Source: Candidatus Woesearchaeota archaeon (lineage in GTDB: Archaea > Nanobdellota > Nanobdellia > Pacearchaeales > GW2011-AR1). From it: a stretch of 44,889 bases of DNA. Below are positions 4,564 to 41,300 of this stretch, piece by piece. A program made the translations under genes and the position numbers. The notes under the pieces were generated by a model. It was not told where the DNA came from. It was given only the letters and a program-made list of their open reading frames with translations, and made no database searches. The stretch spans positions 1-44,889 of the forward strand of contig CAZZNU010000001.1 of assembly GCA_964655925.1 (NCBI GenBank), in the 5' to 3' direction. The stretch's first letter is position 1. Each line of letters starts with the position of its first letter.

Positions 4564-5937
4564 ATGGTTTTAGAAAAAATTGGAGAATCAATAAAAAAGG
4601 GAATCACACGTATTGGAAATGCTATTGTTCTAGATAAAAAAATGATTGATGATATCATTAAAGACATTCAAAGAGCATTAATAGAATCCGATGTGAATAT
4701 TGATTTAGTATTTGGTTTAACTCAAAAAATAAAAAAGATAGCATATGATGAAAATATTCGTGGAATTGATAAAAAAGAACAACTAATTAGCCTAATTCAT
4801 GATGAAATATTAAAGATTTTAGGACAGGAAACAAAAGAATTAAAGTTAGATAAAAAAACAACCATCTTGTTCACTGGACTTTACGGTTCTGGTAAAACCA
4901 CAAGCATTGCTAAAATAGGGTTCTATTATGCAAAAAGAGGTCGAAAAGTTGCATTAGTGGGATTAGATACAGATAGACCAGCTGCAATGGAACAATTAGA
5001 GCAAATGGCTCAGAAAGTAAAACTAAAATCTTTTATAGACAAAGAAGAAAAAGATCCAATTAAAATTTACAAAAAAATATCTAAAGAACTTGAAGACTAT
5101 AATTTAGTTTTAATAGACAGCGCTGGAAGAGATGGGCTAAATAAGGATTTAATTAAACAAATAGAAAAAATAGACAAAACTGTTGAAGCTAATTATAGAA
5201 TTTTAGTAATGAGTGCTGATATGGGACAATCTGCTAAAACGCAAGTTGAAAAATTTAAAGAGGCGTTAAAAATAGACGGGATAATTATAACAAAAATGGA
5301 TGGTACATCAAAAGCAGGTGGAGCATTGACTGCATGTGTTGAAACATCCTCCCCTATATACTTCATAGGAACTGGAGAGTATATACACGACATAGAAATA
5401 TTCAATCCAAAAAATTTCATTAATAACCTTTTAGGAATGGGAGATTTGTCTGGGCTATTAGAAAAAGTTAGAACGATGAGTGATGAAAAGCAAATGAAAA
5501 GGACAACCCAAAGACTAGAAGAAGGAAAATTTACACTTCTTGATGTCTATTCTCAATTAGAGCAAATGAATTCTATTGGTTCAATGGACAAAATACTTTC
5601 TATGATTCCTGGATTTGGAAATGTCTCTAGCAAAATCTCAAAAACAGATATGGAAAAGCAGAGTAAAAAACTAAAAAATTGGAAATCTGCAATTAATTCT
5701 ATGACAGAAGAAGAAGTTGAAAACCCTGAAATATTAGAAAAACAAACTTCAAGAATAAGTAGAATTGCAAAAGGCAGTGGTACAACCACTAGCGAAATAA
5801 GAATGCTACTTAAACAGTATAAACTTCTAAAAGAAATGATTTACAGTTCAAGCAGTGAAAAAATCGCTAGTGGACAAATAGACAAAAGAATGATGCAAAA
5901 AATTGCTAGACAGATGAAAGGAAAGGTAAAACTTTAA
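4564..5937 (+). CDS. srp54: Signal recognition particle protein SRP54
   Basis: SRP GTPase motifs GLYGSGKTT, DTDRPAA, DSAGR and TKMDGTSKAGGAL, followed by a Met-rich M domain. Confidence 0.92.
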   Translation: MVLEKIGESIKKGITRIGNAIVLDKKMIDDIIKDIQRALIESDVNIDLVFGLTQKIKKIAYDENIRGIDKKEQLISLIHDEILKILGQETKELKLDKKTTILFTGLYGSGKTTSIAKIGFYYAKRGRKVALVGLDTDRPAAMEQLEQMAQKVKLKSFIDKEEKDPIKIYKKISKELEDYNLVLIDSAGRDGLNKDLIKQIEKIDKTVEANYRILVMSADMGQSAKTQVEKFKEALKIDGIIITKMDGTSKAGGALTACVETSSPIYFIGTGEYIHDIEIFNPKNFINNLLGMGDLSGLLEKVRTMSDEKQMKRTTQRLEEGKFTLLDVYSQLEQMNSIGSMDKILSMIPGFGNVSSKISKTDMEKQSKKLKNWKSAINSMTEEEVENPEILEKQTSRISRIAKGSGTTTSEIRMLLKQYKLLKEMIYSSSSEKIASGQIDKRMMQKIARQMKGKVKL

Positions 5938-6702: not shown

Positions 6703-7926
6703 TCATCTCATTATGCCATCCCACTCTGTACATAACATCTCTTTTTCACTTTCTTTATCTTTTCTTGGCCACTTCACTTTAGCCTCTAATTTATCAATTA
6801 TATCTTCATCCCACTGATAAAAAATCAGTTGAGTATATGAATAATCATTTTCTTCAGCTACTCCTGTTCTATAAGTAAGAGTGCTAATTGTTATAAAAAA
6901 ATCTCCTGAATTAGGATTAATGTATTCTGGAAGCGCGATATTATGTCTCATTTTTTCAAATGCTTTTTTTGTTTCCTCTATTTCTATCCCACCTTTGTAA
7001 GGTATATAAAGCAATTTTCTTATTACATAAGTTTTTTTAAAGGTCTTGTAATCTAAATCATCACAAATTTTGTCAGCATCAGAGATTTTTGACCCAGTTT
7101 TTTTATTGATTATATTTATAGTTGGATTACCTTTTGCTATATCTCCAATGTTGTAACTATCCCACTTTTCTGTATAAACATCATCAATTGGATAATCCAC
7201 CTTTATAACATAGTTTTCTATTATACTCCCTCTACACATTAAAGAATAATTTTCTGTAACTAAATAATGTCCAGATTTCCCAACAGAATAATTTTTGCTA
7301 AAACCCATTGCTCCCCCTATCGTTATATATGGAACTTTAGAGATACTCTCTTCATAATTGGTCTGAAACCTATCTAGGTATATTTCTTCTGCTATTATTG
7401 GATTTAACCCACCCGCTGTTAAGTATTGCTTATATGATGTATCATGTCCTTTTATTTTTTTATTCATCGCATCCTTAATATTAATCTCATTTTCTCCCAT
7501 GTAGAAACTTTTTACACTGTCTTTAAATGTGATTCTTGCGCACGGATAACAACTAGAAAAAGAACCTCCTGAAAATATTGATTTTGATGGATAAATATTA
7601 TAATTCCCTTGTCCAAATAGACTCCAGCATTCTGCCATCTGCATCATTATTTCTTTTTCGGCCCTATCCTTATCTTTGTAGTCTATAGTTACAACATTCG
7701 TAGAACATTTTAATGGATACATCTCTTTAAATTTTATCCAATTTACTCCTGCAAAATCCATATTAGGTAGTGTGTTTCTCAAAATAATACTTTGTTGACA
7801 AACCTCTTTGCTTGCAGTATCTTCAGTAAAGAATTCTTGAAACAGCCAAAACATCCCGATAGATAATACAATTAACGAAAGAATTAATCCAACTATAAAA
7901 TATGGTTCTATCCCTCTCTTATTCAT
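6703..7926 (-). CDS. Hypothetical secreted/anchored protein with class III (prepilin-like) signal peptide
   Basis: The N-terminus MNKRG/IEPYFIVGLILSLIVLSIG fits a short basic leader, Gly, then a hydrophobic helix. The 407-aa body contains several Cys. No family recognised. Confidence 0.5.
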   Translation of the reverse strand: MNKRGIEPYFIVGLILSLIVLSIGMFWLFQEFFTEDTASKEVCQQSIILRNTLPNMDFAGVNWIKFKEMYPLKCSTNVVTIDYKDKDRAEKEIMMQMAECWSLFGQGNYNIYPSKSIFSGGSFSSCYPCARITFKDSVKSFYMGENEINIKDAMNKKIKGHDTSYKQYLTAGGLNPIIAEEIYLDRFQTNYEESISKVPYITIGGAMGFSKNYSVGKSGHYLVTENYSLMCRGSIIENYVIKVDYPIDDVYTEKWDSYNIGDIAKGNPTINIINKKTGSKISDADKICDDLDYKTFKKTYVIRKLLYIPYKGGIEIEETKKAFEKMRHNIALPEYINPNSGDFFITISTLTYRTGVAEENDYSYTQLIFYQWDEDIIDKLEAKVKWPRKDKESEKEMLCTEWDGIMR

Positions 7927-7963
7927 ATTTGTTTAATAATAAAGACATTTAAAATTCTGTCGG

Positions 7964-8033
7964 TTAACGGTGGACGGTTGACAGTTTACTGTTTACGGTC
8001 GACGGTTTACGGTCTACAGTTGACAGTTTACAT
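7964..8033 (+). repeat. Heptanucleotide tandem array A (10 units, GTTKACN family), intergenic
   Basis: Read directly, register shifted by one relative to GTTKACN: TTAACGG TGGACGG TTGACAG TTTACTG TTTACGG TCGACGG TTTACGG TCTACAG TTGACAG TTTACAT. It abuts the NAC stop codon at 8034. Confidence 0.85.
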
Positions 8034-8366
8034 CTATGCCACCAAATTAACAATTGCCTCAGCTATGTCGTTATCGTATTTTTTTAGTGCTTCAATTACT
8101 TCGTCTCGTTGCTTGTTTGTTTGAGACATAACCATTTCAATATCTTCTTCACTTATTTTGAGCTCATTTTCTTCTAACTCTGCGTGTCCCGTTATTTGAT
8201 AACTTTCTTGTCCGTGCATCATAATTTTTAGAATATCAGGATTTTCTATTACTAAATTTCCTTCAGGTGTCTCAAAGATAACTCTAGAAGCATTTATAGG
8301 AACTTGAGAAATTCCCATCTTTTTCATCATTGCTTGCATTTGTTTTGGGTTAATATTTGGAATCAT
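8034..8366 (-). CDS. nac: Nascent polypeptide-associated complex protein (archaeal NAC)
   Basis: 110 aa with NAC-domain N-terminus (NPKQMQAMMKKMGI...V.I....) and a C-terminal UBA-like segment (RDEVIEALKKYDNDIAEAIVNL). Confidence 0.85.
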   Translation of the reverse strand: MIPNINPKQMQAMMKKMGISQVPINASRVIFETPEGNLVIENPDILKIMMHGQESYQITGHAELEENELKISEEDIEMVMSQTNKQRDEVIEALKKYDNDIAEAIVNLVA

Positions 8367-8512
8367 CTTATAAAAAAGTGCAGTATGATTTCTAAAATAA
8401 CAGTAGCAACTACCATTCCCATTACAACACTTGGTTTTAACTTAAATCTAGAATTATACTCTTCGCTATAACGAGTCAATCCACCAAAAGAGGGCATTCT
8501 AATTTCAGCCAT
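8363..8512 (-). CDS. secG: Preprotein translocase subunit Sec61beta (SecG), 49 aa; not in the ORF track
   Basis: Hand translation gives MAEIRMPSFGGLTRYSEEYNSRFKLKPSVVMGMVVATVILEIILHFFIR. This matches the archaeal Sec61beta pattern: GL-x-RY-x-E, then KP..V, then a single C-terminal TM. Its stop overlaps the NAC start (ATGA). Confidence 0.7.
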   Translation of the reverse strand: MAEIRMPSFGGLTRYSEEYNSRFKLKPSVVMGMVVATVILEIILHFFIR

Positions 8513-8629
8513 AAGTGATTATGTTATCCATCCTTTAAAACTTTTTCTAAAATAATTTGTAATTTATAAGTGATTATCATACTGTAATATAAAAATATTT
8601 AAAAACTTTTGAAATTTTAAATTATTCAT

Positions 8630-8677
8630 ATACAATAAGTTGTATTAAAAACGACTACAAACTACAACATATTGTAA
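8630..8677 (+). promoter_or_regulatory. Two tandem NrdR-box-like 16-bp palindromes upstream of nrdR-nrdD
   Basis: Box 1 is ATACAATAAGTTGTAT (8630-8645), with perfect 6-bp arms. Box 2 is CTACAACATATTGTAA (8662-8677), with 5 of 6 arm positions matching. The centres are 32 bp apart, about three helical turns. Box 2 ends 21 nt before the nrdR ATG. Confidence 0.6.
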
Positions 8678-8698
8678 TTATTAAAAAGAGGTAATAAA

Positions 8699-9148
8699 AT
8701 GCTCTGTCCATATTGCAACAATGAAGATACAAAAGTTACAGATAAAAGAGATAATGACTCAGTAACTAGACGGAGGCGTGAGTGCCTAAAATGTTCAAAA
8801 AGGTTCACAACTTATGAAAGAATAGAAATGAATTTATATGTTCTAAAAAAAAATGGTTCTAAAGAAAAATTTGACAGAGAAAAACTTTACAGTGGAATTT
8901 CAAAATGTTTAGAAAAAAGAAAGTTTGAAGATGAGGAAATATCAAATATTGTTGATAAAATAGAGTCAAGAATCTACAAATTAGCAAAAGATAAAGATAT
9001 TGAATCAAAAAAAATAGGAGAAATAGTAATGTCTGAACTAAAAAAAATAGACAAAGTAGCATATTTACGGTTTTCAGCAGTGTATAAAGGGTTTGAAAGT
9101 TTAGAAGATTTTGAGAAGGAGTTGGAGGATTTAAAAAATGGTAAGTAA
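8699..9148 (+). CDS. nrdR: Transcriptional repressor NrdR (zinc ribbon + ATP-cone)
   Basis: N-terminal CPYC...18 aa...CLKC zinc ribbon with RRRREC, followed by an ATP-cone (KKNGSKEKFDREKL...VAYLRFSAVYKGF). GAGGT lies upstream of the ATG. Confidence 0.9.
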   Translation: MLCPYCNNEDTKVTDKRDNDSVTRRRRECLKCSKRFTTYERIEMNLYVLKKNGSKEKFDREKLYSGISKCLEKRKFEDEEISNIVDKIESRIYKLAKDKDIESKKIGEIVMSELKKIDKVAYLRFSAVYKGFESLEDFEKELEDLKNGK

Positions 9149-11237
9149 AATAAGAAAAAGAGATGGGGATGTCGTAACATTTGACGAACAAAAAATAGAA
9201 AATGCTATTTGGAAAGCAGTTTGTGCTGTCGGTGGAAAAGACAGAGAAAAAGTAATTTCGATAACAAAAGTTATAATAGATAAATTAGACGAAAGATTCG
9301 GAGAAAATAATATCCCAGGAGTTGAAGATGTTCAAGATTTAGTTGAAGAAGTTTTAATTAAAAATGGACACGATCAAGTTGCAAAGGCATACATATTATA
9401 TCGTAAAAGCAGAGAAGATTTAAGAAATGTTAAAGGTCTTTTTGACACAATTGAAGCAGTAGAGGATTATTTAGGGTTAAACGATTGGATGGTAAAGGAA
9501 AATTCTAATATGGGATATTCTCTACAAGGTTTAAACAATTATATTTCTACAAAAATTATCACAAACTATTGGATAAGACGAGTTTATCCAGAAGCAATTA
9601 GAAAAGTTCACGAGGCGGGCGATTTGCACATTCACGATCTAGGAACTTTGGGTTCTTATTGCGTTGGTTGGGACCTAAAAGATTTACTTTTAGTTGGTTT
9701 TCAAGGTGTAAAAGGGAAAGTTGCAAGTAAACCTGCAAAACATTTAAGGACAGCCTTGGGACAAATAGTAAATTTCTTTTACACACTTCAAGGAGAGAGT
9801 GCAGGAGCGCAGGCGTTTAGTAACTTTGACACACTTCTTGCTCCATTCATCAGGTACGATGGATTAGATTACAAACAAGTTAAACAAGCAATGCAGGAAT
9901 TTTTATTTAATTTAGCAGTACCAACGAGAGTTGGATTTCAAACTCCCTTTACAAATGTAACTATGGACTTAAAAGTTCCTGAATATATGAGAGACGAACA
10001 TGTAATAGTTGGAGGACAAATTCAAAAAGAGACATACAAAGATTTTGAGGAAGAAATTAAGATATTAAATAGGGCATTTGCTGAATGTATGCTTGAAGGC
10101 GACGCATCAGGAAGGGTTTTTACTTTTCCTATTCCAACTTATAATATAACAAAAGACTTTGATTGGGACAACCCAGAATACAATTTAATTTGGGAAATGA
10201 CAGCAAAATACGGAATTCCTTATTTTAGTAATTTTATAAATTCGGATATGAAACCAGAAGACGCAAGAAGTATGTGTTGTAGGTTAAGAATAGATAACAC
10301 AGAATTAAAAAAACGAGGTGGAGGACTTTTTGGGGCGAACCCACTAACAGGTTCTGTTGGAGTTGTAACTATAAATATGCCAAGATTAGGGTATACCTCA
10401 GTAAACGAAGAAGATTATTTCCGAAGATTGGGAAGATTAATGGAATTAGCAAAAGAATCTTTAGAAATCAAAAGAAAAACTATTGAGAAATTTACAGAAA
10501 TTGGTTTATATCCTTATTCAAGGTTTTATCTAAGATTAATTTATCAAAGATTTAAGCAATACTGGAAAAACCATTTTGCAACAATAGGACTATTAGGATT
10601 AAACGAATCAATTATTAATTTTATGCCAGAAGAGAGTATAATAACTCCAAAAGGAAAAGACTTCGCACTAAGAGTTCTGGATTTTATGAGAAATAAATTA
10701 GAAGAATTTCAAAAAGAAACTGGAAATATCTACAACCTTGAAGCAACACCTGGAGAAGGAACAACTTATCGTTTTGCAAGAATAGATAAAAAAAGATTTG
10801 GGAGAATTGTCTGTGCAAATGAAAAGGCGTATAAGGAAAACAGCGCACCTCCTTACTACACAAACTCATCTCAGCTACCAGTAGACTATACAGATGATAT
10901 ATTTGAGGCACTAGATAATCAAGACCAATTGCAATGCAAATATACAGGTGGAACAGTATTTCACACTTTTATTGGGGAAAAAATAACAGCAGAAGCCGCT
11001 AAAAGTATGGTAAAAAAAATAGCGAATAATTATCACTTGCCTTATTTTACAATCACTCCAACATTTTCAATATGTCCAATTCATGGATATATCGCAGGAG
11101 AACACGAATACTGTCCAAAATGTGATGAGGAGATAGAAGCAGAAGAGAGTAGCGTACTGTCTCAAGCGTATACTGTTTCGGATTCAGAATTAAACATTGA
11201 ATCTCAAAATAAAATGGAGGTGTTTTATGAGAGCTAG
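9138..11237 (+). CDS. nrdD: Anaerobic (class III) ribonucleoside-triphosphate reductase NrdD, large piece lacking the glycyl-radical segment
   Basis: N-terminal ATP-cone, an NrdD core, and the C-terminal zinc site FSICPIHGYIAGEHEYCPKC. The ORF then runs into non-conserved sequence (DEEIEAEESSVLSQAYTVSDSELNIESQNKMEVFYES) and stops without an RVxGY motif. Confidence 0.9.
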   Translation: MVSKIRKRDGDVVTFDEQKIENAIWKAVCAVGGKDREKVISITKVIIDKLDERFGENNIPGVEDVQDLVEEVLIKNGHDQVAKAYILYRKSREDLRNVKGLFDTIEAVEDYLGLNDWMVKENSNMGYSLQGLNNYISTKIITNYWIRRVYPEAIRKVHEAGDLHIHDLGTLGSYCVGWDLKDLLLVGFQGVKGKVASKPAKHLRTALGQIVNFFYTLQGESAGAQAFSNFDTLLAPFIRYDGLDYKQVKQAMQEFLFNLAVPTRVGFQTPFTNVTMDLKVPEYMRDEHVIVGGQIQKETYKDFEEEIKILNRAFAECMLEGDASGRVFTFPIPTYNITKDFDWDNPEYNLIWEMTAKYGIPYFSNFINSDMKPEDARSMCCRLRIDNTELKKRGGGLFGANPLTGSVGVVTINMPRLGYTSVNEEDYFRRLGRLMELAKESLEIKRKTIEKFTEIGLYPYSRFYLRLIYQRFKQYWKNHFATIGLLGLNESIINFMPEESIITPKGKDFALRVLDFMRNKLEEFQKETGNIYNLEATPGEGTTYRFARIDKKRFGRIVCANEKAYKENSAPPYYTNSSQLPVDYTDDIFEALDNQDQLQCKYTGGTVFHTFIGEKITAEAAKSMVKKIANNYHLPYFTITPTFSICPIHGYIAGEHEYCPKCDEEIEAEESSVLSQAYTVSDSELNIESQNKMEVFYES

Positions 11238-11352
11238 GACTAAATGTGAAGTTTGGAGCCGAGTTGTTGGATATTTAAGGCCAACATCTGCTTGGAATGA
11301 TGGAAAACTTCAAGAGTTTAAGGATAGAAAAACATTCAATCAAAACTCTTAA
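11227..11352 (+). CDS. 41-aa ORF encoding the NrdD glycyl-radical segment; not in the ORF track
   Basis: Hand translation in the +1 frame gives MRARTKCEVWSRVVGYLRPTSAWNDGKLQEFKDRKTFNQNS. It contains the class III RNR glycyl-radical signature (SRVVGYLRP...WN.GK..EF..R). GGAGGTG at 11216-11222 lies 4 nt before the ATG. Its stop lies 1 nt before the nrdG ATG. Confidence 0.7.
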   Translation: MRARTKCEVWSRVVGYLRPTSAWNDGKLQEFKDRKTFNQNS

Positions 11353-11353
11353 G

Positions 11354-12052
11354 ATGGATATTTGTGGATTAGAAAAAACCACGCTTATAGACTATCCAGG
11401 GAAAATTGCTTGTACGATTTTTTTATTCGGTTGTAATTTTAGATGTGGTTTTTGTTATAACGCAAGTTTGGTTTTAGACAAACCAGAAGGATGTTTATCT
11501 GAAGAGAAAATTTTTGAATTTTTAGAAGGTAAAAGGGGAAAATTAGATGCAGTTTGTATTACAGGTGGAGAACCACTCTTAACAGTAGAAAAAGATTTTT
11601 TAAGAAAGATAAAAGAAATGGGATTTTTACTTAAGATAGATACGAACGGAACAAGTCCGGACAAATTAAAAGAACTAATTGATGAAAAACTAGTTGACTA
11701 TATTGCTATTGATATAAAGAACTCAAAAGAAAAATACGATTTAACAACGGGAGTTGATACAGATATTTCTAAAGTGGAAGAGTCAATGAAAATAATATCA
11801 AACTTTGAAAATTATGAATTTAGAACGACAATTGTTCCTAAACTTCACACAAAAGAAGATATAGTAAATATTATAGATTGGTTTAAATCTTTAAACATAT
11901 TCCCACAAAGATATTACCTGCAAGGATTCAAAAACAAAGGGGATTTTATTGATGAAAAATATTCAAAATACCATAATGCGACTGCAAAGTATCTGTATGA
12001 ACTAAAGAAGATAATAAAACCATTTGTTCAGAAAGCTGGATTGAGGTATTGA
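11354..12052 (+). CDS. nrdG: Anaerobic RNR activating protein NrdG (radical SAM)
   Basis: It has the CNFRCGFCYN radical-SAM cluster motif, GGEPL, and a typical start MDICGLEKTTLIDYPGK. The track ORF begins at 11297, but those extra 19 codons overlap the glycyl-radical ORF in another frame. Confidence 0.85.
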   Translation: MDICGLEKTTLIDYPGKIACTIFLFGCNFRCGFCYNASLVLDKPEGCLSEEKIFEFLEGKRGKLDAVCITGGEPLLTVEKDFLRKIKEMGFLLKIDTNGTSPDKLKELIDEKLVDYIAIDIKNSKEKYDLTTGVDTDISKVEESMKIISNFENYEFRTTIVPKLHTKEDIVNIIDWFKSLNIFPQRYYLQGFKNKGDFIDEKYSKYHNATAKYLYELKKIIKPFVQKAGLRY

Positions 12053-12059
12053 GCGGGCG

Positions 12060-12101
12060 GTTGACGGTAAACAGTCGACCGTAGACAGTTTGCTGTTTAC
12101 T
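12060..12101 (+). repeat. Heptanucleotide array B (6 units), downstream flank of the four-helix-bundle gene
   Basis: GTTGACG GTAAACA GTCGACC GTAGACA GTTTGCT GTTTACT. It lies between the nrdG stop (12052) and the four-helix-bundle gene stop (12104). Confidence 0.8.
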
Positions 12102-12103
12102 GC

Positions 12104-12454
12104 TCACCCCAATCGCTTCGCAAATGTAAAAATTTTCCCGCTTATAATATCTATTTTCCCTACTAAATAATTTAACTCTTCTTCTGATATATAATTAAGA
12201 TTTTGTGCTATGATTAATTGACATTCTACTTCCTTAGCACTACCTAAAGACATATGTAAGAAATGTTTAAAATATTTATTTGAATTTCTTCCGGAGCCCT
12301 CTGCTATATTTGATGAGACACTTACAATTGCTCTTCTTATTTGGTTTGTTAACCCGTACATTTCCTCTTGTGGAAATTTTTTTGTGACCATATAAATTTC
12401 ATTTGTGAATTCAATAGATAACTTCCATATATCTAATTCCTTAAAATTATTCAT
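12104..12454 (-). CDS. Four-helix-bundle protein (23S rRNA intervening-sequence protein / Avd-like family)
   Basis: The 117-aa core MNNFKELDIWKLSIEFTNEIY...QIRRAIVSVSSNIAEGSGRNSNKYFKHFLHMSLGSAKEVECQLIIAQNLNYIS...KIFTFAKRL matches the family pattern (NIAEG.GR, F...A.GS..E). The ATG at 12454 is preferred over the TTG at 12583. Confidence 0.85.
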   Translation of the reverse strand: MNNFKELDIWKLSIEFTNEIYMVTKKFPQEEMYGLTNQIRRAIVSVSSNIAEGSGRNSNKYFKHFLHMSLGSAKEVECQLIIAQNLNYISEEELNYLVGKIDIISGKIFTFAKRLG

Positions 12455-12507
12455 CCATTCATTAACAGAATAAGTATTATATTTTTTATGACTAAATTGG
12501 GATAAGC

Positions 12508-12556
12508 CGTAAGCAGTAAACTGTAAACCGTAGACTGTAGACAGTAGACAGTAGAC
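12508..12556 (-). repeat. Heptanucleotide array C (7 units, opposite orientation), in the leader of the four-helix-bundle gene
   Basis: The plus strand reads CGTAAGC AGTAAAC TGTAAAC CGTAGAC TGTAGAC AGTAGAC AGTAGAC, which is the reverse complement of GTYTACN units. Confidence 0.85.
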
Positions 12557-12604
12557 TGCAAAATTTTTATCCAGAAAATTCAATAAAATTTAAATAGTCA
12601 TTAT

Positions 12605-12629
12605 TTTCGCGCGTTTTAAATTTCGCGCG
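12605..12629 (-). promoter_or_regulatory. BRE/TATA-like promoter for the four-helix-bundle gene
   Basis: The plus strand reads TTTCGCGCG TTTTAAA TTTCGCGCG. The minus strand reads CGCGCGAAA TTTAAAA CGCGCGAAA, the same CGCGAAA-plus-TATA arrangement seen upstream of tfb and other genes here. Confidence 0.5.
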
Positions 12630-12633
12630 AGTC

Positions 12634-12675
12634 CGTAAACAGCAAACAGTCAACAGTCAACAGTCAACCGTAAAC
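12634..12675 (-). repeat. Heptanucleotide array D (6 units), upstream flank of the four-helix-bundle cassette
   Basis: The plus strand reads CGTAAAC AGCAAAC AGTCAAC AGTCAAC AGTCAAC CGTAAAC. The reverse complement is GTTTACG GTTGACT x3 GTTTGCT GTTTACG. Its inner end, GTTTGCT GTTTAC, mirrors the inner end of array B. Confidence 0.85.
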
Positions 12676-12715
12676 AAAAAAAGAAAAAAAACAAAAAAAG
12701 GGAAAAAATCCCTTT
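12676..12715 (-). terminator. Hairpin plus T-run terminator of the S-layer-like gene
   Basis: On the minus strand, AAAGGGA TTTTT TCCCTTT forms a 7-bp stem (12697-12703 with 12709-12715). It is followed by TTTTTGTTTTTTTTCTTTTTTT and starts 12 nt after the stop codon. Confidence 0.6.
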
Positions 12716-12726
12716 AAATTTTATAC

Positions 12727-15057
12727 TTATGCAACAACAGTAGCCGTAGCAGTAGAGTATACCTTACCCTCACCATCAGTCAAACTGATAGATTTAGCGT
12801 TTTCCAACAAGTAAGATACAGCTCTTGTAGTATCAGCAGCTTCATAACCAGCAACCAATAAAGCAGTTTTACCTCCTCTATTAAATGCCTTAATCATGAA
12901 TTGTCCTTCTCCAACACCAGTATGCTCTGTAAATTCAGTGCCTCTATAAGAACCACCTAATAATTCAGCAGCAACTGTGTTAATAGCAGAACCACCAACA
13001 ACAACAAGATTTTTATCAACACCGCTAACCTCGCTATCCTTCAATGGAACAGCACCGGTAGATGTTGTTACTCTAGCACTTCCAGATGCAATAGATACAT
13101 CAGCAATAGCTTCTTCATTTCCTACGAAAATAGAGAATTTGTTAGAATCTGCTTCATCAAATTCAAACCTAGACGCCATTCTGGTATTAAGGTAACCAGT
13201 TGTAACATCTTTTGTTTTTACTTTCGTCTCAGCAGCAGTTACTAAAGCGTAACCATCAACTTCAAGGTCATCATCACTGTTAACTTTAACATTTAATTTA
13301 AAACCTTCATCTGATAATTTACCTTCGTAATCTGGTTCTAGTAATGTAAAGTGAGATAGATTTCCAAGACCGTTGAATGTTGCCTTGTCAGCAGCACCAA
13401 CTAATTTTGTAAAATCTAAATTCACAGTCAAACCATTTGCTGTATATATTTTATCATGCACCACTGTGTATGTTCCAGAAACTGTTGGCAATATAGACAA
13501 TGTACTAGGTGTACCATCATTTGATGTACCAGTACGAGCTGTACCGTTGGTATATTCAAATTTAACATTTCCTCTAGTTACTTCTCTACCATCTTTTAAT
13601 GTGAAAGTAGAACCATCAACTAAAGAAGATAGTGTTAATTCTGCATCGTCAAGATTTACTTCATCTACCTTATACACTTGTGATCTATATTCTTCACCAG
13701 AAGTTCTAGCAGAAGATACAATTATCATATTATCTTCCATTGATTCTCTTACTTCTGTATAAGGAGAACCACTTCCAGTGTAGGCTACATCAAAGACAAT
13801 TACTTTTCCACCACCACTAGATTCTGGAGTTAAGAATACATTACCATCGTCGTTTCCAACGATTACACCATATCCTACTCTACTTGAATCATAAGATAAT
13901 ATTGGTAAATCAATAGAACCATCTTTTAACTCTAAAGATAACACCAATTCTTCTCCTGGAACTACAGCAGTTTCTTCTAAGTCAGAAGATTCTACTCCTC
14001 CATACACTAATTTTAGTGACTGGAATCCTGGCATAATTAGTTCATTATCTTCTTCAGTTAAGAATGTTCCTTTTGTCTCAGTTGCAGTCCATTCTATTTC
14101 AATGACACCGCTTGCATCATTCACTGTTGTAGCTTTAAGACCTTTTACATCTTTGTCAGCTATTCTTACAGCTGCACCGTTAGTAAGTTTTATAGAACCA
14201 CTTCCTATTGTAACTTCTACGCTACTTGGGATTGATTCTTTACTAGATACATAAACTTCTTTAAGTAAAAGATGTGAATCATCAGACAATTTTTGAGTTT
14301 CGTCTTTGTTCATATTTCCTAAACTCTTTCCATTTACTGTAACTCTAGCTTTTCCTGTACTTATGTGAGATACAGACACTTCATATGTCTTCTCACCAAC
14401 AGTTATAGTTGTAGTTTGACCTTCTTCAACTTCAACAACAGAGCTTGCATCAAACAATTCTATTGTATGTGTTCCTGTTGTGTTTACTTTACTAACATAG
14501 TATGTTCCACCTAATAATGGAATATCAACACCCACAGCTTCATTCAACTCACCCTCAAGGTCTAATTTATACTTAAGAATTTCTGCATCTTTAGCTATGT
14601 TAAACCCTAAAGTTTCTTCTTTATCGTTGTAATTTCTATCTGAAAAGTATTGCAAAGCAGGTCCTGTAGTAGGGAATGTGATAGATTGAGAGTAATCCAT
14701 TTCAACATTGTCCTTATCTCTATAAGTGCCTTCTGCTAAAAATCCTTCCATATGGTCCTCATTAAGAGTTGCAATGACATTTGAGAAGTCATCACCCATA
14801 TTGAATTTTTTATAAGAAGTTTCTAGCTTAAATGAATCACCACCTTCAACAACAACACTTCCTGTTCCAACTCCTAAATCTGCAACAACTGTAGCAGCTG
14901 CAGTAGAGTCACTTGCTAATGCAGAAGCACCAACAACAACAGCAGTATTGCTTCCAGTTAAACTAGAATAGCTAGCTGCTAAAGCACCACTTAAAGTAGC
15001 ACCTATAAGAGTTAAACCTCCTAATACTGTTATAGCTTTGTGAAATAATTTTTTCAT
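12727..15057 (-). CDS. Large secreted surface (S-layer-like) protein
   Basis: Signal peptide MKKLFHKAITVLGGLTLIGATLSGALA. The body is rich in T, S, V, G, E and D, has no Cys, and looks beta-rich. AGGAGGT lies upstream of the ATG at 15057. The track start at 15108 would translate that RBS. Confidence 0.6.
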   Translation of the reverse strand: MKKLFHKAITVLGGLTLIGATLSGALAASYSSLTGSNTAVVVGASALASDSTAAATVVADLGVGTGSVVVEGGDSFKLETSYKKFNMGDDFSNVIATLNEDHMEGFLAEGTYRDKDNVEMDYSQSITFPTTGPALQYFSDRNYNDKEETLGFNIAKDAEILKYKLDLEGELNEAVGVDIPLLGGTYYVSKVNTTGTHTIELFDASSVVEVEEGQTTTITVGEKTYEVSVSHISTGKARVTVNGKSLGNMNKDETQKLSDDSHLLLKEVYVSSKESIPSSVEVTIGSGSIKLTNGAAVRIADKDVKGLKATTVNDASGVIEIEWTATETKGTFLTEEDNELIMPGFQSLKLVYGGVESSDLEETAVVPGEELVLSLELKDGSIDLPILSYDSSRVGYGVIVGNDDGNVFLTPESSGGGKVIVFDVAYTGSGSPYTEVRESMEDNMIIVSSARTSGEEYRSQVYKVDEVNLDDAELTLSSLVDGSTFTLKDGREVTRGNVKFEYTNGTARTGTSNDGTPSTLSILPTVSGTYTVVHDKIYTANGLTVNLDFTKLVGAADKATFNGLGNLSHFTLLEPDYEGKLSDEGFKLNVKVNSDDDLEVDGYALVTAAETKVKTKDVTTGYLNTRMASRFEFDEADSNKFSIFVGNEEAIADVSIASGSARVTTSTGAVPLKDSEVSGVDKNLVVVGGSAINTVAAELLGGSYRGTEFTEHTGVGEGQFMIKAFNRGGKTALLVAGYEAADTTRAVSYLLENAKSISLTDGEGKVYSTATATVVA

Positions 15058-15485
15058 ATTTTTTATTAACCTCCTTTCAGCACTATTATTGTTAGCCGCC
15101 TTAATCAAGGCCCTGAAATTCAGGTTTGGAAACTAAATAGCCTGGCCGGAACTTATAACTAGGGAGCGCTATAAGGTCATCACTAGGGTCCCTGTTTGTA
15201 CACTGACTAGTCAGCATTATTGATGAACAATAACGCAATCATAGTAAATTTTTATCATTTATAAAGTTTATCCTATTATTCTCGGTTGTCGTCGGCGTTT
15301 TTTGCCGAATTGTAAACTTGGTTTATAAACACTTTGTTGTCACTACATGTTTTAACAAAAAAGTAACTCCTAAAACTTTTCAATCTTTTATATATGACAT
15401 AAAAAAACATATGTGCTTCCTCGTCGTAATTGTCTAAAAAACTAATAACCATAATTTATATTTTTTAACGAATTTGTCCAAAAAC

Positions 15486-19112: not shown

Positions 19113-22100
19113 CTACTTCTTCTCTAAAACTCCATCTCTAAAAGTATAATTTTCTAAAACAACTAATTTGTGTATTCCTATATATTCTCCCTTTTGTTTT
19201 TCATCAATTACAATAGCTCCATCCTCTAACACCTTCCCTACATTTTTATTAAAAAACAAAATACCTGATTTTTTTACCTTACCCTTATCATCTATAAAGA
19301 ATTTTGTCCTCTCTCCACCATACACAATATGCTTACCTTCCACATAAAAGTTGTAATCGTACATACATTTTCCAGAAAACAAATCACAATGGTACCCACT
19401 CTCACACTCTAAGTCAGAACTACAATAAGTATTAACACACCTATTATCTTCATCACAAACTTTTCCAACACTACAATCCAAAGACACCAAACACTCAACA
19501 CATGTCCTGCTCTCTGTTATCCAAACCATCTTGTTTTCTATACACCTTTCTTCTTCTCTCACAAATTCGTTTATACATTTTCCAGATGTCAAGTTACAAA
19601 AATATCCACTATTACAATCCAAGTCAGAACTGCAAAAATCACTAACACATACATTTTTTACACATACTCCTGCACCACAATCTAAAGATGAAATACATTC
19701 AACACACCCTAACTCATTTCCACCCCATACAAAACCACTTCTCTTACAATCTAATTCACTCTCTTTAAACTCTTCAAAACATTTTCCAGAAGTTAAATCA
19801 CAAAAATATCCTTTATCACATTCCAAATCAGAACTACAAAAATCATTAACACACATTTTATCTACACTACATATTTTACCTATACCACAATCAGAAGACT
19901 CCAAACACTCAACACATTTTCTATCTTTAGTTATCCAAAATAACCCATTGTCTTTACAAATTTGCTCCTTTTTTATAAAATCGTCCATACATTTTCCAGA
20001 AAACAAATCACAGAAATATCCTTTACCACATTCCAAATCAGAACTACAAAAATCATTAACACACATTCCATCCACGCTACATACCCTACCTATACCACAC
20101 TCTGAAGATGACATACATTCAACACACCTTTTTTCATCCTCTAACCAAGTCCACCCATTCTTAGCACAACTATCTTTCACCCTATCAGCATCCTTATATA
20201 AGGCACCATTAGAAATACGATATTTTTCTAATTCTTCATATGTGAACCCTACTCCTATTATCTCTCTATTCTTAAACTCTGGACTCACCACAATTATATC
20301 ATTTGAATTTAAACTAGCAATTATATTCTTACCACTTAAATCATATATCTTCCTATCAGCTGACAAATACATGTCTATATAATTATAATTATAATAAATT
20401 TTATTCTCTTTTAGATTTAACCCTATATTTTTCTTAAACTCTCCTCCAATAAATGAGTAATCGCTTAATGCCGAAAAAGTTATATCTTCCCCTTTAATTC
20501 GCTTAGATTCATGCCCACTTATTATTGAAATAGATTTATCTTCATTGATATAACCAAATTTTGTATACGGAATTGAACAACTTTGTAAATAGTAATCATA
20601 AACTCCTGTACCTTCTTTTATACAAATACCAGTAGAACGGGTTTCATACAATATTTCTCCCTTTATCGAGTTATATGAAAATCCTGAAACAGATATTGTC
20701 TCAACCAACTTCTCACAATGGTTATGACAATATTCCTTATTGTCCTCCCCCATACTTTCTAAGCAACTCAAAACACAATCCTCTGCTATTCCATCTTCTA
20801 CTACTATTCCTCTTTTTGCTAATATAGAGTTTAAAGAAATCTTCAAATAATATGCGTACGCTTTTTGACTGTTAGTAGCACCACTTGATGTTCCTATTAT
20901 ATCTTCTAAGTCCTTATTTATCTCATTATATGTTTTTACATCTCCAACAGACTCTTCAGGAGCAAAACTGTTTATTTTTTTCTTTACTTCTTCTAATTTA
21001 GTATCAAACTGTTCATAACTTCCAACCGTCCTTTTAATCCCAATATCTTTAATTTCAGAAGGATCTATTGTAGACAGAACCTTGTTTATATCTTTAGTAT
21101 CAAGCCAACATATTACATTTTCATCTCCACAATATCCAACATTTCTCCACCTCTCATCACTCTCTACAATAGATGCTCCAGATTCTGGATTCCTACTAGC
21201 ACAAACTCTAGTAATTCCAACACTAGAAATACTGTTTCTTGAATCAAGCATATTGTCTCCTTCCACAAAGTCAACAATTAAATTTAATCCGTGGCTAAAA
21301 GATAAACAATCCGCTTCTGTTGTTATCTTTGTAGAATTAACATCAGCTAATAGTATTTTATCTATTACACGATTAACTCCATACAGTGAACTAGTTACTC
21401 CAAAGTCGCATTTTGTATCACCATCTACTGAAATACATAATTTCCTATATCCACTTATTGCAGTAAAATCTTTATTTTCTATTTTTGACTCTCTAGCCGG
21501 AATAATTCCTTTAGCTATAACATAAGTATTATCATATGAAATGCTTGATGGATCCGTTAAATATACGCTATAAGACCTATCCTTACTACCTGCATAAATA
21601 CTATAAAATACACTGTATATTGATTCAGGTGGGGTTGTAGCATCAGTATAACTTTTCTCACTAACACTTCCTGTAAATTGTGCCCCTGTTGTTGGAGATA
21701 AAGAATTCCACACTCCACTAAGCCAACTCTGTTTGCCCCCATCTCCTATGCCAATAGACGGCGTATTAATTATTGCATTACATAAATCATAACTAACATT
21801 TTCTAGATTAATATCAAATAACTTGTCTAAAGATGTACTCAAATAATTTGCAATATAATTAGACGCTATAGCGTTTAATTCTTTTCTTTGTGCCAAGAAG
21901 TTAAGATAAGTTGAACCACCACTTAGTTTACTTATACCTAAATTACCCACCCAATTTAGACCTGAATTTACTAACGAGACAGCATGCTTAGTAACCATCT
22001 CACAAATATAAAAGCTCCTTATCTTATCACAACTGCCAACATATTCTCCAGTCGTCGCCCTTGTGTTTAAACAATTTTGATGTTCAACAAGCATAGAACG

Positions 22101-38300: not shown

Positions 38301-41300
38301 TCTTGGTATTTATTTACAAACGACTCCATATTTCCATGTTCTGTAATAGCAACACTGTCCATCCCTAATTCTTTTACACGCTTAAATAAATCCTTAACCC
38401 TTATTGAACCATCTAAAAAACTAAACTCTGTATGTAAGTGTAGATGCACAAAGTCAACATCCTTAGCATCTTTTTTAGATTTTGTATTCTTGTCTTTTAC
38501 ATGTTCTTTTATATTCTCTTTGTTTTCAATATATTTTCTATCTATTTCTTCACTTTCTTCATTCAATTTTATCTGTTTATCAGAACCGAATATATCATGA
38601 ATATATTTTTGTGCTATATTTACACACTCAACAGTGTACTCACTAACATCATATTTCTTTGTTAACTCTATAGCCGTATCTAAATATTTTTTAATAGATG
38701 CGTATGATACCGTCATCAAAAGATTCCCTTCACACCTTCGGCAAGTTCCTATCAAAGGCACCCTACGATGTTTTAAACCACAAGAAGAGCATCTAAACTG
38801 CTGTTTAAAAAATCTTGATAAATTTCCTATAATATCTTTTAAAAAATGTTTTTCTATTATCATCTTAGCTACATTATCTTTGTCAACAGCCCTTATCTTT
38901 TCAGCCAACTCCATTTGTTTTTCTACTTTTTCCTTCATATTGTTTAGTAATTTATACATGCCATTTACTTCACCCTGATTTATATCAAATGTATCATGTG
39001 TAAATCCTATATTAGAAAAACAAGATATCTTTTTTTTCATTCTCTCTTTTACATTTTTATTTTTTACATTACTAGAATGTTCTTTATTTAGAGATTTTTC
39101 ATACAATTCTAAATCATATTTATCGGCTAAATCATATTCTAATATTTGATCATCTACTTCACCTGGATTAATCTTACTGTTTAAAATAAGTGGCGCATCT
39201 TGAGTTCCACCTCTATGCTTTGGTAAAAACTCTTTATTAAAATTTAACAAAACATCCATTAGCATCATCACACTCATTTCATCACCATCGCAATCTCTTC
39301 TAATGGCTGCATGCATGTACGGACTAGCCATTATCCCTTGCATTTGAGAAAAACCTATTATTCTTCCAACAACTCCTGCACAATTGTGGGGTGCCATACA
39401 GACAACTAATTGTCCTACTAAATCTTTTTTGCTTTTTACATTATAATATCTATCTAAAGAATAAATTTTTTCCAATTCTTCATCTATAAAATTACATATA
39501 TTAGAGAAAACATCAATAGATGACATACTTCCAGAATCGTTAAAACTTGATAGTACTATATCGTGCGGTTTTAATTCAATAATTTGTTCTTCTGAGATTA
39601 TTTCATTTCCATTTATGTCAATATTATATCCTATTTCTTTTAGTTTTTCTATAGATGCATTTATTTCTTTAGGTTTAAAATGAGTCAAAGGTACTTCTGT
39701 ACCATCATACCTAATCGTCCCATCTTTATTAACACCAAGATTATAGAGGCTTCTTAATATTCCTTTTCTAATATCTTCCTCTTTATCACATTTTTTCATT
39801 CCCCTAACAGAACTCAATATTTTTTTATCATATTTATTTTCTTCTATAAACTTCACAGCACTTATGTAGACTTTTGATGTTTGATTGACTGTTGACTGTT
39901 GACTGTTGACTGTTGACTGTAGACTGTTGACTGTTGACTGTTGACTGTAGACTGTTGACTGTAGACTGTTAACAGTAGATGTTACCGAATTAAATGTTGT
40001 TTTTCTCAGCCTTGCTTTTTCTGGGCGCCCCATCCTAGCCCCTATAAATTCTCCACTTTTATCTTTTATTTCATACTCAGCAAATTCGTTAATTAGTGCT
40101 AGAATATCTTTTCGTCTCTCTGACTTTGAAATTATATCTTCTAATTTATTTTCATTACTTCCAATGTTTATAAATAGAGATTTAGCAACATCTTTTTCTA
40201 TAACAACATTATCTAAAACAACTTCATGTGGGACTCCTAGTAATTCCAAACTTCTTTTGCCAACATTATACTTCTCTTTAGAAATATTCCCATACGGTAA
40301 TATAAATTTTTCCTCTATCCAATTTCCCTCTTTTATCCATATCAATAGTTTTACAAAATCTTCTACATCTATTTGGTTCCAAAAATAAATGAATTCTGGA
40401 TGCAATGGTATAGAATATTTTTTACTTATTCTTATAGCTAAATCTAAACTTATATCATTTTTATCGTACTCTATATAGTCATTAAGTATTTCCATTTTAT
40501 TTTTCAGGTCCAAATCCCACCATTCTTCTACATATGCAGACTTTAACAAAATAGAATTTCTATCAACCACATCCCCTAAAGACACTAACATATCTCCTAA
40601 ATAAATTATTTCTTCTGTTTCTTTGTAAAGTTTTTTCCCTTCTTCAAATGTTTTTATTTTTCTTACACTACCGTTTTTTAGTTTCACTATTGGTCCATCT
40701 ATACTATCACAAGAAGTGATAATTGCTCCCTTTATTGGTTTTTCAATTTTTAGTTGAGTCCCTAAAGATAAAAAACTATTACTAATACCCATCGTTGCTG
40801 GACTAATTGACACTGCACTAAATCCACTATTTCTACTTTTACCATATCTGAATCTAAAAGAACCACCTCTTGATGGATATCCAAAAATGGGTCTCCCTGC
40901 TACTAAATCTTTTATATAAACAGCATCCCCTGTATGTCCTTCAATAGACTTTGAGTGAATAAGAGAGTATTCTCCAAGATAATCAAATCCAGAAGATATT
41001 ATACCATGTTTTTTTACTTCTTTTAGTCTTGCTAGTGCCTTTTGTGCCTTTTGTGCTAATCCTTCACATAAAACTAAACACATGCCTCCACGAATTTTAT
41101 TCTCTGGCACTCTTTTTAAATTTCTATACTCACTAACTTCTATATTTTCTGTAGGCTCCCCGTCAATTTGAATTGGTATGTTTTTTACTAAAAATTTTAA
41201 TTCTTCTTCTGTTGGTAAATACTGCAAATTTGAGACTTTCTCATTATAATCTATACATTCTATATAGTATCTATTAATTTCTTCTTCTGTTGGAATATAT

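What the first reader, a model, noticed from the sequence alone, without database searches (positions are those of the whole stretch)
12053..12680. Four-helix-bundle (23S rRNA IVS / Avd-like) gene with its own promoter is bracketed by inverted heptamer arrays, a cassette-like element between nrdG and the S-layer gene
The layout, in order, is: nrdG stop; array B (6 units, GTTKACN on plus); the four-helix-bundle gene on the minus strand; array C (7 units, inverted); the CGCGCGAAA/TTTAAAA promoter-like palindrome; array D (6 units, inverted); the S-layer terminator. Arrays B and D are in inverted orientation. Their gene-proximal ends are nearly identical: GTTTGCT GTTTACT against GTTTGCT GTTTACG. 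They therefore resemble terminal inverted repeats around a self-contained transcription unit of about 620 bp. This protein family is known from 23S rRNA intervening sequences and as the Avd accessory protein of diversity-generating retroelements, and its role outside those contexts is unclear. The heptamer CAACAGT, a rotation of GTCAACA, is as far as I recall also one of the cyanobacterial STRR heptamers. That hints at a widespread link between such repeats and this gene family. The cassette could be a non-autonomous mobile unit. The four-helix-bundle protein might also bind or act on the heptamer arrays.
Basis: partly seen in the sequence, partly recalled or inferred. Interest (0 to 1): 0.72.

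Follow-up and report, generated by a model that had tools for sequence, protein, structure and literature searches.

The report
Small gene framed by mirrored repeats
A small four-helix-bundle gene in a DPANN archaeon is framed by mirror-image runs of a 7-base repeat. The same layout surrounds this gene family in about 130 bacterial and viral loci, which suggests these genes are free-standing relatives of the "intervening sequences" that fragment ribosomal RNA.

Summary
Arrays B, C and D (unit GTNNACN), the CGCGCG palindrome and a PF05635 four-helix-bundle (4HB) gene lie where stated. The gene is 12104-12454 on the minus strand and encodes 116 aa.

The pattern is general. In 81 GTDB loci, 59% of intergenic gaps next to a PF05635 gene hold a period-7 or period-8 array, against 11% of other gaps in the same loci (p = 6e-23). 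In 47 viral contigs the figures are 66% and 32%.

The unit sequence differs from locus to locus. In 29 of 43 loci the upstream unit is the reverse complement of the downstream unit, against 4% for cross-locus pairs.

Arrays sit about 30-45 nt before the start codon and at the stop codon. The gene points the same way as its upstream neighbour in 95% of loci. Units and protein are inherited together.

The Coxiella 23S rRNA intervening sequence (IVS) has the same features: an S23p ORF, tandem heptamers and an RNase III-cut stem.

My best reading is an IVS-type cassette outside rRNA, whose arrays pair in cis to form a stem around the ORF. Mobility is only partly supported. An RNA-level role is inferred, because the wobble test gave no signal. 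The protein's function is still unknown.

The parts
12060..12108 (-). Array B. This is the downstream (3') arm: 7 heptamers starting at the 4HB stop codon (TCA at 12104-12106) and ending 8 nt after the nrdG stop. It also folds on itself (GTAAACAG...CTGTTTAC).
   Evidence: pairing with D; local hairpin
12104..12454 (-). Four-helix-bundle gene (PF05635 / TIGR02436, S23p family), 116 aa, starting MNNFKELDIW.
   Evidence: 116-aa gene calls in L114, L115 and L117
12455..12508 (-). Conserved leader. It holds a TATA-like box, AAAAAATATAATA (12475-12487), about 21 nt before the ATG, and the motif ATCCCAATTTAGTCAT. It is conserved in L001 and L002.
   Evidence: alignments; promoter function is inferred, not tested
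12509..12557 (-). Array C. This is the proximal upstream arm of 7 heptamers. Its position, about 54 nt before the ATG, matches the family norm.
12558..12634 (-). AT-rich spacer plus the palindrome CGCGCG-TTTTAAATTT-CGCGCG (12608-12629). It is absent from L001. In L002 it is present but sits between the array and the leader.
12635..12676 (-). Array D. This is the distal upstream arm of 6 heptamers, and it is the arm predicted to pair with B.
12697..12715 (-). Terminator-like hairpin with a T-run belonging to the upstream, co-directional S-layer gene (12727-15108).
7963..8032 (.). Array A. It has 10 units of the same heptamer family and lies between the NAC gene stop and the next gene. No 4HB gene is nearby.
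39884..39981 (.). Array E. It has 14 units of the same family and lies in frame inside the PolD DP2 coding sequence.

Best explanation
The locus is a free-standing member of the S23p/IVS-type cassette. This is a small four-helix-bundle ORF with a short leader, bracketed by two arrays of a 7-nt (elsewhere sometimes 8-nt) unit that are reverse complements of each other.

The arrays act in cis. They pair with each other to form a long stem that tolerates shifts in register and encloses the leader and ORF. In this window the pairing is D with B, and C is an alternative partner for B.

The cassette sits co-directionally just downstream of another gene, here the S-layer gene. It is most likely transcribed at least partly by read-through. 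In bacteria the stem is the kind of substrate that RNase III cuts to excise rRNA intervening sequences. The enzyme that would act in this archaeon is unknown.

ORF and arrays are inherited together and occasionally relocate.

Shown: the architecture, its conservation, the covariation of the two arms, its polarity and the co-inheritance. Inferred: the RNA-level stem, its processing, and any role of the protein.
For: - Enrichment: 58.8% of gaps next to 4HB genes carry a strong period-7/8 array, against 10.8% of other gaps (odds ratio 11.8, p = 6e-23). In viral contigs the figures are 65.7% and 32.1% (raw counts).
- Complementary arms with locus-specific units: 29 of 43 loci, against 51 of 1203 cross-locus pairs. 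In 36 of 78 loci an ungapped stem exceeds the 99th percentile of the control.
- Paralogues in one genome use different units, and even different periods, which points to cis pairing rather than a shared trans factor.
- Geometry is stereotyped. The upstream array ends a median 30-45 nt before the start codon. The downstream array starts 0-9 nt after the stop. Each has about 4.4 copies.
- The gene is co-directional with its upstream neighbour in 74 of 78 loci, against a 76% baseline (p = 1e-5).
- In L008 the cassette fills almost the whole spacer between tRNA-Cys and tRNA-Val.
- Polarity on the sense strand: the upstream arm is 27% G and 10% C, and the downstream arm is the reverse. AG[AT] occurs in 30 of 45 upstream units, against 23% by chance.
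- Unit sharing rises from 1-2% of pairs below 50% protein identity to 100% above 85%.
- In this lineage the D:B stem has z = -4.2 and the L002 stem has z = -4.4.
- Precedent: the Coxiella IVS has 3-4 tandem GACAGAT units before the S23p ORF inside a 28-bp stem cut by RNase III, and the copy number varies between strains (PMC4990558).
Against: - Mismatches in the stems show no excess of sense-strand G·U over A·C (56 against 86). RNA-level selection is therefore not demonstrated.
- In the archaeal copies a conserved TATA-like box lies between the upstream arrays and the ATG. A transcript from that promoter would lack the 5' arm.
- Without D, the window transcript does not form a long stem (z = -1.8). 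L001 folds weakly (z = -1.3).
- About 40% of gaps next to 4HB genes have no detectable array.
- L046 and L079 have direct rather than inverted arms.
- RNase III is, to my knowledge, usually absent from archaea.
Confidence: 0.6

Rival explanations
1. This is a DNA-level element. The arrays are terminal inverted repeats or iterons bound by a protein (a transposase supplied in trans, or the 4HB protein itself). That would make it a non-autonomous mobile unit.
For: - The arms are inverted and the edges of homology coincide with the arrays.
- Related cassettes at 74-85% identity lie in unrelated contexts (the window against L002).
- Hairpins without an ORF use the same unit in the same locus, as MITEs do (L014 and L060; L095).
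- There is no sense-strand wobble signal.
- Frameshifted copies exist (L004-L007).
- The cassette is absent downstream of nrdG in 21 more distant relatives.
Against: - No transposase or recombinase is nearby, and no target-site duplication is visible in the window or L002.
- Six strain-level copies are identical and in the same place.
- Many cassettes are syntenic across species.
- The strict orientation with the upstream gene, the fixed spacing to the start and stop codons, and the G/C polarity relative to the ORF are not expected of a symmetric DNA transposon.
- Each paralogue has its own unit, so one shared transposase is unlikely.
Confidence: 0.2
2. The arrays are cis-regulatory sites for expression of the 4HB gene. 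They could drive autoregulation through 4HB binding, act as a terminator or insulator between neighbouring genes, or control translation. In this reading pairing between the two arms is not the functional feature.
For: - The AG[AT] core and the polarity are conserved.
- B folds on itself between the convergent nrdG and 4HB genes.
- Heptamer repeats near start codons in Nostoc affect expression and are suspected to have an unidentified binding partner (bioRxiv 10.1101/2022.06.06.494920).
- Solved homologues were deposited with five chains per entry (2GSC, 2RLD). The 2GSC protein is reported to be a homopentameric toroid of four-helix bundles. The related Avd is known, from general knowledge, to bind nucleic acid.
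Against: Simple binding sites would not require the downstream array to be the reverse complement of the upstream one while the unit itself is free to change. Hairpins without an ORF also exist.
Confidence: 0.15
3. The arrays are a generic intergenic repeat of this genome, like STRR or REP elements, and lie next to the 4HB gene by chance.
For: - Arrays A and E lie far from any 4HB gene.
- Other intergenic gaps also carry arrays at 11-32%.
Against: - Three of the five arrays in 45 kb flank the only 4HB gene.
- The enrichment was replicated in two independent collections.
- Arms are complementary and the unit is co-inherited with the protein.
Confidence: 0.04

Closest known systems
ORF-bearing 23S rRNA intervening sequences (Coxiella burnetii helix-45 IVS; Leptospira IVS)
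   Same: - The ORF belongs to the same protein family (S23p, PF05635).
- The termini are complementary and form a long stem around the ORF.
- Tandem heptamers lie directly upstream of the ORF and vary in number between strains.
- The element is co-transcribed with the host gene.
(PMC4990558.)
   Different: - This element is not in an rRNA gene. It lies between protein-coding genes (nrdG and the S-layer gene).
- The host is an archaeon.
- There are two upstream arrays plus a GC palindrome.
- Excision was not tested, and RNase III may be absent from the host.
Avd accessory protein of diversity-generating retroelements
   Same: The fold family is distantly related (bAvd PF22296, 22.7 bits).
   Different: - The score is below the family cutoffs (PF22296 cutoff 40; NCBIfam Avd equivalog 19.3 bits against 80).
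- No reverse transcriptase was seen among the neighbouring genes that were scanned.
- No template/variable repeat pair is apparent in the sequence around the cassette.
Unexplained tandem heptamer repeats of cyanobacteria (STRR; Nostoc TTTTGAA/TTCAAAA) and Beggiatoaceae (TAACTGA)
   Same: - They are contiguous intergenic heptamers near start codons, occur in both orientations, and have no known function.
- The D unit GTCAACA is a rotation of STRR CAACAGT. The STRR sequence is from memory.
   Different: - Those repeats are described genome-wide, and the papers read do not link them to 4HB genes. MacGregor 2015 contains none of the search terms.
- No cyanobacterial locus was examined here.
MITE/REP-type small inverted-repeat elements
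   Same: - The ends are inverted.
- Hairpin versions without an ORF occur in the same genomes.
- The distribution is patchy.
   Different: - The ends are tandem arrays of a short unit that differs between copies, not a conserved terminal sequence.
- No target-site duplication is seen.
- Orientation and spacing are fixed relative to an internal ORF and to the upstream gene.

Membership tests
PF05635 / TIGR02436 four-helix-bundle (S23p) protein | Profile match above the curated cutoff | tested here: met
   PF05635 129.3 bits (cutoff 33.8). TIGR02436 120.7 bits (cutoff 24). PDB 2GSC E = 7e-21.
rRNA intervening sequence (IVS) | Inserted in a 16S or 23S rRNA helix (23S helices 9, 25 or 45) | tested here: not met
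   Rfam found no rRNA or any other RNA family in 7500-13000. The flanking genes are nrdG and the S-layer gene.
rRNA intervening sequence (IVS) | Complementary termini forming a long stem around the element | tested here: met
   The D:B stem appears in both the minimum-energy and centroid structures, z = -4.2. L002 gives z = -4.4.
rRNA intervening sequence (IVS) | Excision from the precursor by RNase III without re-ligation | not testable with these tools
   This needs RNA end-mapping. Whether the host has RNase III is unknown.
rRNA intervening sequence (IVS) | Tandem heptamers directly upstream of the S23p ORF (the Coxiella type) | tested here: met
   Arrays C and D, compared with PMC4990558.
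DGR Avd | Match to the Avd equivalog model, with an adjacent reverse transcriptase and TR/VR pair | tested here: not met
   NF033474 19.3 bits against a cutoff of 80. The neighbouring proteins scanned carry no RT domain.
MITE / TIR transposon | Conserved terminal inverted repeats with a target-site duplication and filled/empty sites | tested here: inconclusive
   - The arms are inverted, but the B/D identity is only 13 nt (P about 0.04).
- No target-site duplication is seen.
- No empty site was found among close relatives.
- The cassette is absent from 21 distant nrdG loci.
Cyanobacterial STRR repeats | Tandem heptamers with the STRR unit sequences, in a cyanobacterial genome | tested here: inconclusive
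   GTCAACA is a rotation of CAACAGT, which the sequence shows directly, but the STRR sequence itself is from memory. The host is an archaeon. Homology cannot be defined for 7-nt units.
CRISPR array | Repeats of 20-50 nt separated by unique spacers | tested here: not met
   The arrays are head-to-tail 7-nt units with no spacers.
Known anti-phage defence systems (PADLOC) | Match to a defence-system protein model | tested here: not met
   No families matched.

The most novel reading that the evidence does not exclude
PF05635 four-helix-bundle genes and their paired 7- or 8-nt "zipper" arrays form a very widespread and so far unrecognised class of self-structured gene cassette. It is found in bacteria, DPANN archaea and viral contigs. 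ORF-bearing rRNA intervening sequences would be the special case of such a cassette landing in rRNA. Each 4HB protein would recognise its own cognate repeat stem and so control its processing, stability or spread. This would also name the missing partner for the unexplained heptamer arrays of cyanobacteria and Beggiatoaceae.
Probability: 0.25. Interest if true: 0.85.

Novelty: new variant of a known kind. Interest (0 to 1): 0.7.

Why it matters
The PF05635 proteins are common across many bacterial phyla, and the papers read here still describe them as functionally uncharacterised. The origin and purpose of rRNA intervening sequences have been open questions since about 1990.

This work shows that the family is almost always packaged between complementary short-period arrays. 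The repeat sequence is free to change but the geometry is not. That gives three things:
1. A defining signature for annotation.
2. A concrete and testable hypothesis: a cis stem, processing by a double-strand RNase, and possibly recognition by the cognate protein.
3. A plausible source for ORF-bearing IVSs.

It may also explain why this family appears as "CRISPR-array associated" in large screens. It extends the element to DPANN archaea, where the usual processing enzyme may be missing.

Tried and rejected
1. Wobble test for RNA-level selection. There were 56 sense-strand G·U against 86 A·C in 36 significant stems, so it gave no support and I make no claim from it.
2. Whole-flank RNAduplex energies. 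True pairs beat mismatched pairs (-66 against -47 kcal/mol). The control with the reverse complement of the same locus was also strong (-60 kcal/mol). I therefore replaced this with unit-level and ungapped-stem tests.
3. Association with tRNA or rRNA operons. Only L008 of 60 loci has tRNAs directly adjacent (L062 has two more than 800 nt away), so I rejected this as a general rule.
4. Rfam searches found no family over the window region or over 12 loci.
5. PADLOC found no defence-system match.
6. Empty-site search. Six contigs carrying the same or a near-identical NrdG all carry an identical cassette. The 21 metagenome nrdG loci are too distant (37-63% identity) and do not keep the S-layer neighbour.
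7. Sharing of units between the cassette and other arrays in the same locus occurred in only 20%, against 3.6% cross-locus. A genome-wide common unit is therefore not the rule.
8. Literature searches found only the local Coxiella observation, not the general architecture. The library covers open-access papers only, so an earlier description cannot be excluded.
9. The CGCGCG palindrome as the promoter. I rejected it as essential because L001 lacks it.

Full report
**What is in the window**

The window is a chromosomal piece of a DPANN archaeon with 30.9% G+C.
- It encodes NAC, TFB, SecY, SRP54, and PolD DP1 and DP2.
- Relatives of its DnaE-type polymerase are named Pacearchaeota or Nanoarchaeota by their sources.

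Between nrdG (11297-12052, plus strand) and an S-layer gene (12727-15108, minus strand) the parts lie in this order:
- array B, 12060-12108, 7 units
- a PF05635/TIGR02436 four-helix-bundle gene on the minus strand
- a conserved leader of about 54 nt
- array C, 12509-12557, 7 units
- an AT-rich spacer with the palindrome CGCGCG-TTTTAAATTT-CGCGCG at 12608-12629
- array D, 12635-12676, 6 units
- the S-layer terminator-like hairpin at 12697-12715

The pattern of three GTNNAC units spaced 7 nt apart occurs 26 times in the window, against 0 in shuffles. The matches are confined to five arrays. Three of the five flank the only 4HB gene.

The gene is most likely 12104-12454 and 116 aa. This follows from the reading frame and from the gene calls in L114, L115 and L117. 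The longer TTG-start ORF runs through array C and is probably not real.

The unit and its junction are both near-palindromic. Orientation is therefore weakly defined, and B is of mixed orientation.

**Close relatives**

- Six contigs from different samples carry an identical cassette at the same place.
- L001 has a 96%-identical protein and the same synteny, and its unique sequence is almost unchanged. Its arrays, however, are completely remodelled, and it lacks array D and the palindrome.
- L002/L003 (85% identity) and a frameshifted version (L004-L007) lie in an unrelated context, upstream of a Fic gene. They are again bracketed by GTNNACN arrays. Homology to the window begins and ends at the arrays.
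- The conserved core is the leader, the ORF and one array on each side. The leader holds ATCCYAATTTNGTCAT and a TATA-like box, AAAAAATATAATA, about 21 nt before the ATG.
- The palindrome is optional and moves, so it is not the essential promoter.

**The pattern is general**

An alignment of 35 homologues retrieved 80 loci from GTDB species representatives. Most are Bacteroidota. Others are Desulfobacterota, Ignavibacteria, Planctomycetota, Acidobacteria, Omnitrophota, Firmicutes and a CPR bacterium. A further 47 loci came from IMG/VR contigs.

- Of the 81 loci analysed (the 80 GTDB loci plus L008), 53 have an upstream period-7 or period-8 array, 60 have a downstream one, and 45 have both.
- Of the viral loci, 35, 34 and 31 of 47 do.
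- I restricted the control to intergenic gaps of the same loci. A strong array is then present in 58.8% of gaps next to a 4HB gene, against 10.8% of other gaps (odds ratio 11.8, p = 6e-23). In the viral set the figures are 65.7% and 32.1% (p = 7e-5).

**The arms covary**

- The unit sequence differs from locus to locus. Examples are AGTGATC, TATGGCT, AGACACA and GTATTGA.
- In 29 of 43 loci the downstream unit is the reverse complement of the upstream one within one mismatch. For cross-locus pairs the figure is 51 of 1203.
- In 36 of 78 loci an ungapped stem between the flanks exceeds the 99th percentile of mismatched controls.
- Paralogues within one locus use different units, and even different periods (L040, L082). 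What is conserved is therefore cis complementarity, not a genome-wide motif.

**Geometry and polarity**

- The upstream array ends a median 30-45 nt before the start codon.
- The downstream array begins 0-9 nt after the stop codon.
- Each array has about 4.4 copies.
- The period is 7 in about 85% of arrays and 8 in the rest.
- The gene is co-directional with its upstream neighbour in 74 of 78 loci, against a baseline of 76% (p = 1e-5).
- In L008 the cassette fills almost the whole spacer between tRNA-Cys and tRNA-Val.
- On the sense strand the upstream arm is G-rich and C-poor (27% and 10%), and the downstream arm is the reverse.
- AG[AT] occurs in 30 of 45 upstream units, against 23% by chance.

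**Inheritance**

- Sharing of the repeat unit rises with protein identity. It is 1-2% of pairs below 50% identity, 21% at 60-70%, 62% at 70-85% and 100% above 85%.
- ORF and arrays are therefore inherited together.
- Among pairs at 65% identity or more, some are syntenic across species and others lie in unrelated contexts.
- Hairpins without an ORF but with the same unit occur in the same loci (L014 7810-7919, L060 692-786). They also occur on both sides of nrdD in L095.
- None of 21 more distant nrdG loci carries a 4HB gene downstream.
- Taken together, the cassette is a long-lived resident that relocates occasionally. It is not a highly active transposon.

**Structure in this lineage**

- The minus-strand RNA of 12040-12700 folds with D paired to B over about 40 nt, enclosing everything in between. 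This holds in both the minimum-energy and centroid structures (z = -4.2).
- L002 folds in the same way (z = -4.4).
- Without D there is no long stem (z = -1.8), and L001 folds weakly (z = -1.3).
- By eye, the proximal end of C (GGTTTACAGTTTACTGCTTAC) can also pair with the start of B over about 21 nt, with two mismatches and one G·U. The two upstream arrays are therefore alternative partners for B.

**Comparison with what is known**

The nearest precedent is the Coxiella burnetii IVS.
- It is a 428-nt element in helix 45 of 23S rRNA that encodes S23p.
- It has a 28-bp terminal stem cut by RNase III.
- It has three or four tandem GACAGAT heptamers directly before the ORF, and their number varies between strains (PMC4990558).

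That paper treats the heptamers as a local feature.

I found no paper in the searchable library that describes the family-wide architecture. PF05635 is still described as functionally uncharacterised. Rfam has no matching family and PADLOC has no match.

The element fails the defining location test for an IVS, because it is not in rRNA. It also fails the tests for a DGR Avd. I therefore file it as working like an IVS without being one: a free-standing variant, here in an archaeon.

**Mechanism**

- Shown: the architecture, arm covariation, polarity, co-orientation and co-inheritance.
- Inferred: the arms pair in the transcript, which is supplied at least partly by read-through from the upstream gene. 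The stem is then cut or otherwise used, as in IVS excision.

Several points weigh against the RNA reading.
- There is no sense-strand wobble excess (56 G·U against 86 A·C).
- A conserved TATA-like box lies between the upstream arrays and the ATG in the archaeal copies.
- RNase III is probably absent from the host. This is from general knowledge and was not tested.

DNA-level readings (terminal repeats or iterons) and a purely regulatory reading remain open. The idea that the arrays are generic repeats lying here by chance is contradicted.

**Limits**

- The bacterial sample is the top 80 of at least 598 hits and is dominated by Bacteroidota.
- TRF thresholds miss degenerate arrays.
- No cyanobacterial locus was examined, so the STRR link is untested.
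- The literature library is open-access only.

Noticed in passing
window 39884-39981: Array E has 14 heptamers and lies in frame inside the PolD DP2 gene. It is translated as ...TSTVNSLQSTVYSQQSTVNSLQSTVNSQQSTVN..., between the Pfam central and catalytic domains. In an alignment with four distant DP2 fragments, it takes the place of a conserved segment that lies between RMGRPEKA and IKGILR. That segment includes GGRLRSFQ and CxxC motifs.
   Followed up: partly
window 35354-41896 (-): A single 2180-aa ORF joins PolD DP2 (aa 29-990) in frame to a bacterial-type DnaE (PHP, pol III alpha, finger, HhH and OB domains). The junction reads ...KDAKDVDFVHLHLHTEFS, with no stop codon. Relatives named Pacearchaeota or Nanoarchaeota have a stand-alone DnaE of about 1040 aa.
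   Followed up: partly
window 7963-8032: Array A has 10 heptamers of the same family. It lies between the stop of the NAC gene and the start of the next co-directional gene, and no 4HB gene is nearby. It is a solitary array of the same kind.
   Followed up: partly
window 11227-11352 (+): The C-terminal piece of NrdD (sequence ...SRVVGYLRP..., which I read as the glycyl-radical site; PF13597 hit on record for the 41-aa product) is encoded as a separate 41-aa ORF in another frame. It overlaps the end of the 699-aa NrdD ORF. The same split appears in all strain-level contigs. The relative L106 has one unsplit ORF of 714 aa.
   Followed up: partly
window 19355-20126: A 210-nt tandem repeat (3.7 copies, 70% matches) lies inside a 2040-aa ORF (19113-25235, minus strand) that has no Pfam match.
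   Followed up: no
L004-L007 (for example L004 2005-2348): This is a frameshifted version of the L002 cassette, giving a 79-aa product and two tblastn pieces. Both arrays are intact. It was seen in 13 contigs from several samples.
   Followed up: partly
L008 9891-10462: In a bacterial contig the 4HB cassette lies between tRNA-Cys and tRNA-Val. Its arrays are CAGTGAA x4 upstream and CTATTCA x4 downstream. They come within about 4 nt and 0-6 nt of the two tRNAs.
   Followed up: yes
L095 1522-1652 and 3868-3977: Two copies of an ORF-less heptamer hairpin (GAATCAT arm, a loop of about 50-70 nt, then an ATAATTC arm) lie before and after nrdD in a related nrd operon.
   Followed up: partly
L046 about 4797-5512: Very long arrays flank a 4HB gene: about 23 and 22 copies of ACTAGGG / GGGACTA. 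They are in direct, not inverted, orientation, which is an exception to the rule.
   Followed up: no
L040 3181-5365; L082 2774-6067: Two diverged 4HB paralogues sit a few kb apart. Each has its own repeat unit, and even its own period (7 against 8 nt).
   Followed up: partly
literature (PMC10910872, figure legend): A large CRISPR-discovery screen lists '23S rRNA IVP' among the protein families linked to CRISPR arrays. The flanking heptamer arrays could be what the array detectors picked up.
   Followed up: no
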